NCBI RefSeq assembly: GCF_003334765.1
Contig: NZ_QOWT01000018.1
DNA from: Escherichia coli
GTDB taxonomy: Bacteria; Pseudomonadota; Gammaproteobacteria; Enterobacterales; Enterobacteriaceae
Direction: 5' to 3' (one strand)
Length of the DNA: 64,000 nucleotides
In this document: in pieces, positions 29,801 through 32,800 of the stretch
How positions within the stretch are numbered: position 1 is the first letter of the stretch
Layout: every line of letters begins with the position of its first letter
Position numbers: made by a program

Positions 29801-32800
29801 AAAATGGCGTACTGACTGGGCTTAAGGCGGAAGTTTTCCCGAATGCGGATCTCCGGCAGCAGCACGCCGTTGCCGTCAGAAATCACCTGCCGCACGCCGC
29901 GAATCCGCTGGGTGAGCGGGTTACCCTGTGCTTTGTCCACCAGCGCCACCAGTTTGTAACCGAGGCTTAAACTGATAGGCTCGATCAGCGGAATGGTTTC
30001 CCAACTGACCTGCTGCTCGCTGGTTTCGGTGATGGTGCGGGTCAGCGTTTCGAGGCTTTTCTCTTCCGCCTCCGCCGCCAGCGGCTGTTTGCTCATCCGC
30101 CAGCCGGTAAAACCAAGCAGGGCGCTGAACAGCAAAAACGGCAGGTGCGGCATTCCCGGTACCACCGCCAGCACGAACATAATCCCGGTGGCGGTGTAGA
30201 GCACCGACGGGCTTGCCAGCAGCTGGTTACGCACGTCATGGGCGATATCGCCGTTGTCGCTGACGCGGGTGACGATAATCGCCGCCGCGGTGGAGAGCAG
30301 CAGGGAAGGGATCTGCGCCACCAGGCCGTCGCCGATGGTCATCAGCACATACTGCTGGAAGGCAGCATCGGCGCTCAGGTTGTATTTGAAGATCCCGATA
30401 CAGACGCCGCCGATCAGGTTGATCGCCAGAATCATCATCCCGGCGATGGCGTCCCCGCGCACAAACTTCGATGCCCCGTCCATCGCGCCGTAGAAATCGG
30501 CCTCGCTGGCAACATCTTTACGCCGGGTTTGCGCCTGCGCCTGGTTGATCAATCCGGCGTTAAGATCGGCGTCAATCGCCATCTGTTTGCCGGGCATCGC
30601 GTCTAAGGTAAAGCGGGCAGAAACCTCGGAAATACGCTCGGCCCCTTTGGTGACGACAATAAAGTTGATTGTCAACAGCGTCAGTAAATCCGAGCGTGAA
30701 AGCATTATCGCCGCGCTGCACGGGCAGTCGATTTTTAACGGTGGTGGGCTGTCGCCGTTAAATAAAATCAGCCCGTCTCATCCGCCAAAACCTGCCACCG
30801 TGGCGGTGCCGGAAGAGACGGAGAAAAAAGCGCGTGATGTGAATGAGAAAACGGCGCTGCTGAAGAAGAAATCCGCCACCGAGCTTGGTGAGCTGGCAAC
30901 CAGTATCAACACCATTGCCCGTGATGCGCATATGGAAGCGAATCTGGAGATGGAGATTGTTCCCCAGGGATTACGCGTGCTGATTAAAGACGACCAGAAC
31001 CGCAATATGTTTGAACGCGGCAGCGCGAAGATTATGCCGTTCTTTAAAACGCTGCTGGTGGAGCTCGCGCCAGTGTTCGACTCGCTCGATAATAAAATTA
31101 TTATTACCGGGCATACCGATGCGATGGCCTACAAAAACAATATCTACAACAACTGGAACCTTTCGGGTGACCGCGCGCTTTCGGCTCGTCGGGTGCTGGA
31201 AGAGGCCGGAATGCCGGAAGATAAAGTGATGCAGGTAAGCGCAATGGCGGACCAGATGCTGCTGGATTCCAAAAATCCGCAAAGCGCGGGCAACCGGCGC
31301 ATTGAGATTATGGTGCTGACCAAAAGTGCGTCCGATACGCTGTATCAATACTTTGGTCAGCATGGGGATAAAGTGGTGCAGCCGCTGGTGCAAAAGCTGG
31401 ATAAGCAGCAGGTGCTTTCGCAGCGAACGCGTTAAATGCTGAATCTTTACGCATTTCTCAAACCCTGAAATCACTGTATACTTTACCAGTGTTGAGAGGT
31501 GAGCAATGCGTAAAATCATTCATGTGGATATGGACTGCTTTTTCGCCGCAGTGGAGATGCGCGACAATCCCGCCCTGCGCGATATCCCTATTGCTATTGG
31601 CGGCAGCCGCGAACGTCGGGGGGTGATCAGCACCGCCAATTATCCCGCGCGTAAATTTGGCGTACGTAGCGCTATGCCGACAGGGATGGCGCTCAAATTA
31701 TGCCCACATCTCACCTTGCTTCCGGGGCGCTTTGACGCCTACAAAGAAGCCTCAAATCATATCCGTGAAATCTTCTCGCGCTACACCTCGCGCATTGAAC
31801 CGTTGTCACTGGATGAGGCTTATCTCGATGTCACCGATAGCGTCCATTGCCACGGTTCTGCGACCCTCATCGCCCAGGAAATCCGCCAGACAATCTTCAA
31901 CGAGCTGCAACTGACGGCGTCTGCGGGCGTGGCACCAGTAAAGTTTCTCGCCAAAATCGCCTCCGACATGAATAAACCCAACGGCCAGTTTGTGATTACG
32001 CCGGCAGAAGTTCCGGCATTTTTACAAACCTTACCGCTGGCAAAAATCCCCGGCGTCGGCAAAGTCTCAGCGGCAAAACTGGAAGCGATGGGGCTGCGGA
32101 CCTGCGGTGATGTACAAAAGTGTGATCTGGTGATGCTGCTTAAACGCTTTGGCAAATTTGGCCGCATTTTGTGGGAGCGTAGTCAGGGGATTGACGAACG
32201 CGATGTTAACAGCGAACGGTTGCGAAAATCCGTCGGCGTGGAACGCACGATGGCGGAAGATATTCATCACTGGTCTGAATGTGAAGCGATTATCGAGCGG
32301 CTGTATCCGGAACTTGAACGCCGTCTGGCAAAGGTAAAACCTGATTTACTGATTGCTCGCCAGGGGGTGAAATTAAAGTTCGACGATTTTCAGCAAACCA
32401 CCCAGGAGCACGTCTGGCCGCGGCTGAATAAAGCTGATCTAATCGCCACCGCGCGTAAAACCTGGGATGAACGCCGCGGCGGGCGCGGTGTGCGTCTGGT
32501 GGGGCTGCATGTGACGTTGCTTGACCCGCAAATGGAAAGACAACTGGTGCTGGGATTATGATGTATACTATTATGTATATTCTGGTGTGCATTATTATGA
32601 GGGTATCACTGTATGCATCGAATTCTCGCTGAAAAATCGGTCAATATCACTGAGTTACGTAAAAACCCAGCTAAATACTTTATTGATCAACCGGTTGCGG
32701 TTCTTTCTAATAATCGCCCCGCAGGATATCTCTTAAGTGCCAGCGCATTCGAAGCGTTAATGGACATGCTTGCTGAACAAGAGGAGAAAAAGCCCATAAA

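What the first reader, a model, noticed from the sequence alone, without database searches (positions are those of the whole stretch)
30660..30730. Flag-2 lateral flagellar locus deletion scar (lfhA/lafU junction)
The minus-strand FlhA-like ORF lacks about 115 N-terminal residues expected of FlhA-family proteins and its 5' end abuts a plus-strand MotB/OmpA-domain ORF that also lacks a proper N-terminus; nothing of a flagellar cluster lies between them. This matches the known remnant of the ancestral Flag-2 system that survives as two fragments in many E. coli. The breakpoint is within about 30670-30720.
Basis: partly seen in the sequence, partly recalled or inferred. Interest (0 to 1): 0.3.

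Follow-up and report, generated by a model that had tools for sequence, protein, structure and literature searches.

The report
Known Flag-2 flagellar cluster deletion scar
This is the already described junction left in K-12-type E. coli when a roughly 35-kb second (lateral) flagellar gene cluster was deleted, joining two beheaded genes head to head; it is real and ordinary, although the same junction also occurs in other genera and the gene stumps show surprisingly little decay.

Summary
The observation and its interpretation both hold. Alignment to E. coli genomes with an intact Flag-2 cluster places the junction at window 30667-30669, a 3-bp microhomology (GAT).

- **Left of the junction (minus strand):** lfhA codons 131-697. 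The first 130 residues are missing, not about 115.
- **Right of the junction (plus strand):** lafU codons 53-307. The MotB-type membrane and plug segment is missing.
- **Deleted DNA:** 35.1-38.1 kb, relative to four intact strains.
- **Frequency:** of 5,426 complete E. coli genomes, 4,086 carry this junction and about 1,300 are intact at the breakpoints.
- **Prior knowledge:** this is the published fhiA/mbhA (lfhA/lafU) remnant of K-12, so it is already known and of low interest.

Three further results are unexplained.

- The same codon-level junction occurs, in the same gene neighbourhood, in E. albertii, a Citrobacter, Kluyvera ascorbata and three Atlantibacter species.
- The stumps keep open frames in most of these species, with dN/dS about 0.02-0.1.
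- In E. coli, the sequences flanking the scar are mosaics of haplotypes also found in intact strains.

I favour one old deletion allele exchanged and "refreshed" by homologous recombination. Recurrent precise deletion, or selection on the stumps, is not excluded.

The parts
28966..30669 (-). lfhA remnant: codons 131-697 of the lateral-flagellar FlhA homologue plus its stop codon (28966-28968). It lacks the first 130 residues and its operon promoter.
   Evidence: Alignment to intact lfhA. Pfam FHIPEP model positions 99-656 of 657, E=1.6e-189, against 1-656 for the full-length protein.
30670..30705 (-). Twelve foreign codons (MLSRSDLLTLLT) read from the antisense strand of lafU. They give the lfhA remnant an ATG and make the 579-aa ORF.
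   Evidence: Translations; ORF list.
30667..30669 (.). Deletion junction. GAT is shared by both parental sequences (3-bp microhomology). It sits inside 30664-30679, which corresponds to an imperfect 16-nt direct repeat (11/16) in the intact locus.
   Evidence: Three-way alignment. Same junction in 6 diverse scar strains and matching parental sequences in 4 intact strains.
30668..31435 (+). lafU remnant: codons 53-307 of the MotB-like stator protein plus its stop codon. It lacks the transmembrane/plug segment and keeps the OmpA-type peptidoglycan-binding domain.
   Evidence: Pfam finds OmpA only, against MotB_plug plus OmpA in full-length LafU.
30650..30667 (+). Six foreign codons (antisense lfhA) starting at the GTG that RefSeq uses as the lafU start. 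The in-frame ORF can also be extended to the TTG at 30545.
   Evidence: RefSeq annotation mapped to window coordinates; ORF list.
27320..28742 (+). Left flank: yafL (27320-28069) and rayT (28245-28742). This is the chromosomal border of the Flag-2 site.
   Evidence: Annotation of the identical K-12 region. The same border genes occur in intact strains.
31506..32561 (+). Right flank: dinB, the other chromosomal border of the Flag-2 site.

Best explanation
The site is the empty-site allele of the Flag-2 (lateral flagella) presence/absence polymorphism, the same allele as in E. coli K-12.

**Shown.** A 35-38 kb segment running from codon 130 of lfhA to codon 52 of lafU is absent. The two 5'-truncated genes are joined head to head at a 3-bp microhomology. 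Each lost its promoter-proximal operon context and its N-terminal membrane segment.

**Inferred.**
- The junction arose by illegitimate (microhomology-type) recombination, not by a mobile element or a recombinase.
- It arose once, long ago, and has since been inherited and swapped between strains by homologous recombination in the flanking lfhA and lafU sequence. Conversion tracts from intact alleles run right up to the junction.
- The stumps are non-functional leftovers.
For: - **Breakpoints and missing residues:**
- **Domain losses:**
- **Intact clusters at the same site:** found between yafL/rayT (or hicAB, or an IS3) and dinB, with no integrase or recombinase among their annotated genes.
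- **Frequency:** the junction is present in 4,086 of 5,426 genomes. It is base-identical in six strains as different as K-12, O157:H7, ST648 and Seattle 1946.
- **An independent deletion looks different:** the one independent deletion found (strain WB61) uses a different junction, which argues that the common junction is inherited, not re-made.
- **Recombination in the flanks:** the flanks are mosaics in blocks of a few hundred bp, showing intense homologous recombination here. For example, strain Seattle 1946 (scar) is closest to intact ST131 at 500-800 bp on the lfhA side (7 versus 24-29 differences to the others) but has no close match nearer the junction. That pattern is as expected if a junction-containing segment was imported.
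- **Literature:** PMC3032704, PMC6993521, PMC11420993. LafU is reported as not detectably expressed in the laboratory (PMC8824477).
Against: **A single old origin combined with dead stumps sits uneasily with three results.**
- The same codon-level junction occurs in E. albertii, Citrobacter sp. MGH106, Kluyvera ascorbata and three Atlantibacter species, at 76-90% nucleotide identity. That requires very long persistence, or transfer between genera.
- The lfhA stump is open for all 567 codons in five of those six genomes. dN/dS is 0.02-0.12 for lfhA and 0.04-0.2 for lafU, omitting E. albertii lfhA comparisons, which are distorted by its frameshift. Among E. coli scar strains pN/pS is 0.024 for lfhA and 0.050 for lafU, the same as among intact strains.
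- No haplotype is specific to scar strains, even within 12-70 bp of the junction.

**Possible reconciliation.** Frequent gene conversion from selected intact alleles could account for all three, but I did not demonstrate it.

**Weak support for a microhomology mechanism.** Only 3 bp of exact microhomology is weak support for a microhomology-driven mechanism.
Confidence: 0.8

Rival explanations
1. Recurrent precise deletion. The same lfhA(I131)/lafU(I53) junction is generated again and again from intact clusters in different strains, species and genera. The cause would be a strongly preferred or site-specific breakage-rejoining event, so most scars are young.
For: - The identical junction occurs in at least five genera, with flanks diverged by 10-24%.
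- In both E. coli and Atlantibacter subterranea the scar flanks are nearly identical to intact alleles of the same species: 0/800 differences (0/1060 in the wider comparison) and 19/1701 differences.
- The stumps are undecayed, with gene-like dN/dS.
- Scars occur mainly in taxa that also hold intact loci (PMC6993521).
- Short palindromes sit at both parental breakpoints: GATGATCATC on the lfhA side and CTGTGGA-TTG-TCAACAG on the lafU side (read).
Against: - No mechanism is known. Exact identity is only 2-3 bp (GAT, or AT in Atlantibacter).
- There is no extended homology between the two sites.
- No recombinase gene is annotated in four intact clusters.
- The one clearly independent deletion (WB61) used a better, 7-8 bp microhomology elsewhere.
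- The mosaic flanks show that recombination alone can place a scar on many backgrounds.
Confidence: 0.12
2. The two stumps are not dead. After an ancient deletion, the truncated FlhA-like protein (about four membrane helices plus the cytoplasmic domain) and/or the truncated LafU OmpA-domain protein were kept by purifying selection as genes with a new or residual role.
For: - Frames are open across genera: 567 codons of lfhA in Citrobacter, Kluyvera and three Atlantibacter species.
- dN/dS is 0.02-0.03 among Atlantibacter species at dS 0.3-0.8.
- pN/pS among E. coli scar strains equals that among intact strains.
- Changes on the scar lineage in A. subterranea are 6 synonymous to 2 nonsynonymous.
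- RefSeq annotates the lafU stump as an ordinary gene.
Against: - Both stumps lost their native promoters, and they face away from each other.
- No start codon is conserved for the lfhA stump: the ATG at codon -12 in E. coli is Ile in most other genera.
- The LafU stump has no signal or membrane segment to reach the peptidoglycan.
- LafU is reported as not detectably expressed (PMC8824477).
- The E. albertii type strain has a frameshifted lfhA stump.
- Intact alleles exist in the same species, including Atlantibacter, so the gene-like substitution pattern can be imported.
Confidence: 0.07
3. There is no deletion. The two ORFs are complete genes of their own kind, or the junction is an assembly artefact.
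For: None found. The only hint is that automatic annotation gives lafU a protein accession.
Against: - Both ORFs align end-to-end with the 3' parts of longer genes in about 1,300 genomes, which carry 35 kb of flagellar genes between them.
- Pfam shows that the N-terminal model positions or domains are missing.
- The junction is present in 4,086 independently finished genomes.
Confidence: 0.01

Closest known systems
fhiA (lfhA) / mbhA (lafU) pseudogene pair of E. coli K-12 and B, the Flag-2 'terminal remnants' (Ren et al. 2005, J Bacteriol 187:1430, cited through PMC3032704 and PMC6993521)
   Same: Same locus, same junction, and 100% sequence identity over 1 kb to K-12 derivatives. Same flanking genes.
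   Different: Nothing at the locus itself. The window as a whole is not MG1655: it has an extra 9.5 kb near aspV, an uninterrupted crl, and a different island after thrW.
Intact Flag-2 clusters of E. coli (strains 042, W, ST131 and others), which encode a lateral-flagella-like system
   Same: Same chromosomal site. The window's two fragments are the outer 3' parts of the first and last genes on the map.
   Different: The window lacks the roughly 40 genes in between, plus the 5' ends of lfhA and lafU. That is 35,079-38,138 bp, depending on the strain compared.
Truncated Flag-2 locus of E. albertii (PMC11420993), and the lfhA-lafU 'en bloc deletion' reported in 531 Enterobacterales strains including Citrobacter (PMC6993521)
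   Same: Two truncated border genes occupy the site. I found the junction to be at the same codons in E. albertii, Citrobacter sp. MGH106, Kluyvera ascorbata and three Atlantibacter species.
   Different: Those papers report presence or absence and overall similarity. In the passages I read, neither states that the junction is identical at codon level across genera, nor that the stumps evolve like constrained genes.
Microhomology-mediated (illegitimate, RecA-independent) deletions in bacteria
   Same: Seamless junction, 3-bp shared sequence, no filler DNA, and no mobile element at the junction.
   Different: Such events are normally unique. Here one junction is shared by 75% of a species and by several genera. 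A truly independent event (WB61) looks different.

Membership tests
Flag-2 lfhA/lafU deletion scar (K-12 type) | An lfhA fragment that corresponds to the 3' part of a full-length lfhA and lacks the N-terminus | tested here: met
   Codons 131-697 are retained. FHIPEP model positions 99-656 matched, against 1-656 for the full-length protein.
Flag-2 lfhA/lafU deletion scar (K-12 type) | A lafU fragment lacking the N-terminal MotB-type membrane segment | tested here: met
   Codons 53-307 are retained. MotB_plug is absent and OmpA is present.
Flag-2 lfhA/lafU deletion scar (K-12 type) | The two fragments abut head to head with no Flag-2 gene between them | tested here: met
   The junction is at 30667-30669, and homology to the two parental sites overlaps by 3 bp.
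Flag-2 lfhA/lafU deletion scar (K-12 type) | Chromosomal position between yafL/rayT and dinB, where other strains carry the whole cluster | tested here: met
Flag-2 lfhA/lafU deletion scar (K-12 type) | Junction sequence identical to that of K-12 and other Flag-2-negative E. coli | tested here: met
   100% identity to K-12 derivatives. 4,086 genomes span the junction. Six strains were compared base by base.
Microhomology-mediated illegitimate deletion (mechanism of origin) | A short shared sequence at the junction, no filler DNA, and no IS or recombinase involvement | tested here: met
   GAT is shared, within an 11/16 imperfect repeat. No IS lies at the junction, and no recombinase is annotated in the intact clusters.
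Microhomology-mediated illegitimate deletion (mechanism of origin) | A unique historical event (single origin) | tested here: inconclusive
   One junction predominates. However, it lies on many flank haplotypes shared with intact strains and recurs in other genera.
Site-specific excision of a genomic island | An integrase or recombinase gene in or beside the island, and att-type direct repeats of about 7 bp or more at its ends | tested here: not met
   No such gene is annotated in four intact clusters. Only 3 bp are identical, and there is no extended similarity.
Non-functional pseudogene (status of the two stumps) | Neutral evolution: dN/dS near 1 and accumulation of stop codons and frameshifts | tested here: not met
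   pN/pS is 0.024 for lfhA and 0.050 for lafU among scar strains. Frames are open in 5 of 6 other species, and dN/dS is 0.02-0.2, omitting E. albertii lfhA comparisons, which are distorted by its frameshift. This could still reflect import from intact alleles, so it lowers but does not remove the pseudogene reading.
Non-functional pseudogene (status of the two stumps) | No expression and no phenotype | not testable with these tools
   The only evidence is a literature statement that LafU is not detectably expressed in laboratory conditions (PMC8824477).

The most novel reading that the evidence does not exclude
The lfhA'/lafU' junction is not a one-off accident. Either it is produced repeatedly by a precise, conserved excision of the Flag-2 cluster, or it is an ancient allele whose two truncated genes are kept intact by selection. 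Selection could act directly on the stumps, or through a long-lived balanced presence/absence polymorphism shared by Escherichia, Citrobacter, Kluyvera and Atlantibacter.
Probability: 0.2. Interest if true: 0.6.

Novelty: already known. Interest (0 to 1): 0.2.

Why it matters
**As a scar,** it matters little. It is a textbook example of how K-12 lost a second flagellar system, and it is a convenient marker of Flag-2 status.

**The side results could matter more.** One junction is shared across genera, about three quarters of both E. coli and E. albertii carry it, and the leftover gene pieces evolve like working genes. If this reflects a precise recurrent excision, or selection on the stumps, it would change how this "pseudogene pair" is annotated. 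It would also give a tractable case for how presence/absence polymorphisms of large gene clusters are maintained. If it reflects gene conversion from intact alleles, it is a clean natural example of pseudogene fragments being kept "fresh" by recombination.

Tried and rejected
- **Long direct repeat behind the deletion.** I looked for one with ungapped identity at offsets 35,070-35,087, local alignment against 300 shuffles and semi-global alignment against 500 shuffles. None was significant, so no long repeat exists.
- **WB61 junction frequency.** It is unique to one of 5,426 genomes.
- **Atlantibacter as a test case.** I first took Atlantibacter as a genus without intact Flag-2 (0 of 5 strains in PMC6993521). 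That would have made selection on the stumps the simplest reading. A protein search then found a full-length LfhA, 99% identical, in A. subterraneus with the neighbouring Flag-2 genes. That argument was dropped.
- **Scar-specific haplotype.** I looked for a haplotype block next to the junction that is specific to scar strains, in 6 scar and 4 intact strains. None exists at the resolution of the variable sites, which lie 12-70 bp from the junction.
- **Original paper.** Ren et al. 2005 (PMC545627) is not held. Its content is cited only through later papers.
- **Promoter scan.** The consensus scan near the junction gave only weak 9/12 matches. I do not use it as evidence.
- **rayT as a candidate agent.** The neighbouring rayT (REP-associated transposase) was considered. 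It was rejected because there are no REP hairpins at the junction and rayT is absent from some intact loci.

Full report
**What is in the window**

Around the flagged site there are two long ORFs:
- a minus-strand ORF of 579 codons (28966-30705);
- a plus-strand ORF ending at 31435 that can start at 30545 (TTG) or at 30650 (GTG, the start RefSeq uses).

The two ORFs overlap across 30650-30705.

Pfam results:
- The minus-strand product matches FHIPEP (the FlhA family) at E=1.6e-189, but only over model positions 99-656 of 657. A full-length LfhA from an ST131 strain matches positions 1-656.
- The plus-strand product has only an OmpA-type domain. Full-length LafU has a MotB_plug domain at residues 19-70 followed by OmpA.

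**Exact anatomy**

A 1-kb query across the site is 100% identical to K-12 derivatives. In about 1,300 genomes it splits into two places. I fetched one such genome (RM10809-3, locus L001). It carries a complete Flag-2 cluster of about 40 flagellar genes between lfhA and lafU, at the same chromosomal site.

Alignment of the window to L001 gives the following:
- lfhA-side homology runs up to window 30669.
- lafU-side homology runs from 30664 and is exact from 30667.
- The three shared bases, GAT (30667-30669), are the junction.
- Around the junction, the parental sequences GTTGATGATCATCAGG and GTGGATTGTCAACAGC agree at 11 of 16 positions.

Translations show what each gene retains:
- LfhA (697 aa) keeps residues 131-697. 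The 12 codons from the junction up to the ATG at 30705 are antisense lafU.
- LafU (307 aa) keeps residues 53-307. It loses the segment WKVAFADFTLAMMALFMTLW, which is the MotB-type membrane helix. From my own knowledge of MotB, this helix contains the proton-binding aspartate; the Pfam MotB_plug match is the tested part.

The missing DNA is 35,079 bp relative to L001, and 35,187, 36,130 and 38,138 bp relative to three other intact strains.

The observation itself stands.

**How common it is, and whether the junction is always the same**

Of 5,426 complete E. coli genomes:
- 4,086 have a single match spanning the junction;
- 1,291 are uninterrupted at the lfhA breakpoint;
- 1,322 are uninterrupted at the lafU breakpoint.

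In six scar strains chosen across the identity range (a K-12 derivative, O157:H7, ST648, Seattle 1946, Z1323HEC0010, GPEC548) the junction is base-for-base the same. In four intact strains the parental sequences are the expected ones.

I met two exceptions:
- Strain PI12 has an IS1 that removed the lfhA stump.
- Strain WB61 has an independent deletion of 35,077 bp at a 7-8 bp microhomology, CCGGGCA(T)C. Its ends lie only 73 and 79 bp from the common ones. This junction is unique among the 5,426 genomes.

I found no extended similarity between the two breakpoint regions that could explain this proximity.

**Comparison with the literature**

- I could not read Ren et al. 2005 itself.

**Beyond the expected: other genera**

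I scanned one genome per bacterial species with a junction pattern degenerate at third codon positions. The scan returned E. albertii, Citrobacter sp. MGH106, Kluyvera ascorbata, Atlantibacter hermannii, A. subterranea and Atlantibacter sp. RC6. It also returned an E. coli genome and two mis-binned E. coli contigs.

- In all six species the match is syntenic, and each aligns to the window continuously across the junction, at 76-90% identity.
- The junction sits at the same codons, LfhA I131 and LafU I53. The shared bases are GAT, or AT in Atlantibacter.
- The lfhA stump is open for all 567 codons in five of the six species; the E. albertii type strain has a frameshift. The lafU stump is open in the four genomes whose contigs reach its end: 280-287 codons in Citrobacter, Atlantibacter sp. 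RC6 and A. hermannii, and 249 in E. albertii. In A. subterranea and Kluyvera it is open to the end of the contig.
- Among the Atlantibacter species, dN/dS is 0.02-0.03 for lfhA at dS 0.3-0.8, and 0.04-0.09 for lafU.

**Beyond the expected: within E. coli**

- Six scar strains have no stop codon in the 355 lfhA codons and 255 lafU codons next to the junction.
- pN/pS among scar strains is 0.024 (lfhA) and 0.050 (lafU). Among intact strains it is 0.018 and 0.041. Synonymous diversity is unusually high, about 0.19 and 0.12.
- Scar and intact haplotypes are interleaved:
  - Z1323HEC0010 (scar) is identical to RM10809-3 (intact) over 1,060 bp on the lfhA side.
  - The window's first 200 bp on the lfhA side are identical to intact GmM062.
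  - On the lafU side these affinities are swapped.

**How I read these extra facts**

At first Atlantibacter looked like a genus with scars only (0 of 5 strains with Flag-2 in PMC6993521). That would have implied selection on the stumps. A protein search then found a full-length LfhA in A. subterraneus, with lfhB, lfiR and the rest of the first gene cluster beside it.
- It differs from the scar allele of the same species at only 19 of 1,701 positions. The scar alleles of different Atlantibacter species differ by 7-14%.
- The changes on the scar lineage are 6 synonymous to 2 nonsynonymous, the same ratio as on the intact lineage.

So in every taxon examined where both forms were compared, they coexist and share their flanking variation. 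Three readings remain:
1. One old deletion allele that recombines freely with intact alleles, with conversion tracts ending at the homology boundary. The stumps would then carry variation that was filtered by selection in working genes.
2. Recurrent formation of exactly this junction.
3. Selection on the stumps themselves.

- The region is visibly a fine mosaic, in blocks of a few hundred bp.
- One strain pair shows the pattern expected of an imported junction segment. Seattle 1946 (scar) is closest to intact ST131 at 500-800 bp on the lfhA side (7 versus 24-29 differences to the others) but has no close match nearer the junction.
- The only demonstrably independent deletion has a different junction.
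- There is no recombinase and no long repeat that could make a deletion precise.

I did not show either.

Against selection on the stumps:
- Both lost their promoters.
- There is no conserved start codon for the lfhA stump.
- The LafU stump has no export or membrane signal.
- LafU is reported not to be detectably expressed (PMC8824477).

**Verdict**

On its own merits it deserves a low score. I raise it slightly because the cross-genus identity of the junction and the gene-like evolution of the stumps are not explained by the usual "dead scar" account, and they can be tested with the analyses and experiments listed under next steps.

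Noticed in passing
L013, L016, L017, L019, L020, L021 (junction equivalent to window 30667-30669): The same lfhA(I131)/lafU(I53) junction occurs in the same gene neighbourhood in E. albertii, Citrobacter sp. MGH106, Kluyvera ascorbata and three Atlantibacter species, at 76-90% nucleotide identity. In most of them the stump reading frames are open, and dN/dS is 0.02-0.2.
   Followed up: partly
window 29600-31770 compared with L001, L003-L010: The E. coli flanks of the scar are fine mosaics of haplotypes shared with intact strains; for example, a scar strain is identical to an intact strain over 1,060 bp. 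Synonymous diversity is unusually high (about 0.19 in lfhA). pN/pS among scar strains equals that among intact strains.
   Followed up: partly
L012 3100-3150 (E. coli WB61): An independent Flag-2 deletion of 35,077 bp at a 7-8 bp microhomology. Its two ends lie only 73 and 79 bp from the common breakpoints, and it is unique among 5,426 genomes. No sequence similarity explains why both ends fall so close to the common ones.
   Followed up: yes
L011 (E. coli PI12), about 4288-5418: An IS1 sits where the lfhA stump and the start of the lafU stump should be. The result is a secondary, IS-mediated enlargement of the scar.
   Followed up: no
L001 9940-12033 (RM10809-3) and L013 (E. albertii type strain): Decay is not confined to scars. 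The full-length lfhA of an intact E. coli cluster has an internal stop codon, and the lfhA stump of the E. albertii type strain has a frameshift.
   Followed up: no
window 28069-28888: rayT (28245-28742) is bracketed by REP-type elements that score as Rfam naRNA4 (28069-28146 and 28811-28888; another copy lies at 24740-24817). This slot between yafL and lfhA varies between strains: rayT, a hicAB toxin-antitoxin pair, or an IS3 element.
   Followed up: partly
window 10175-19705: This 9.5 kb is absent from MG1655. It is a leftover of a type VI secretion island near the aspV tRNA (IcmF C-terminal part, VasL, Rhs core, ISAs1), with an Rfam group II intron domain hit at 18616-18736. The window therefore comes from a close relative of K-12, not from MG1655.
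   Followed up: partly
window 34087-34810: The rtcB and prfH genes are both fragments here (annotated as missing the C-terminus and the N-terminus respectively). They are complete in some Flag-2-positive strains (e.g. L004). This is a second small deletion scar, 3 kb downstream.
   Followed up: no
window about 38494-38534, and 42703 onward: crl is not interrupted by IS1, unlike in MG1655. After the thrW tRNA (42703-42775) the window no longer aligns with the MG1655 CP4-6 prophage region. An Rfam IS009 RNA hit lies at 49135-49334.
   Followed up: no
L015 and L018: Two metagenome-assembled genomes labelled Clostridiales and Collinsella contain contigs 95% and 99.9% identical to this E. coli locus. 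This is most likely binning contamination.
   Followed up: no
E. coli genome search results: Between 13 and 17 matches to the lfhA/lafU region lie on records labelled as plasmids.
   Followed up: no
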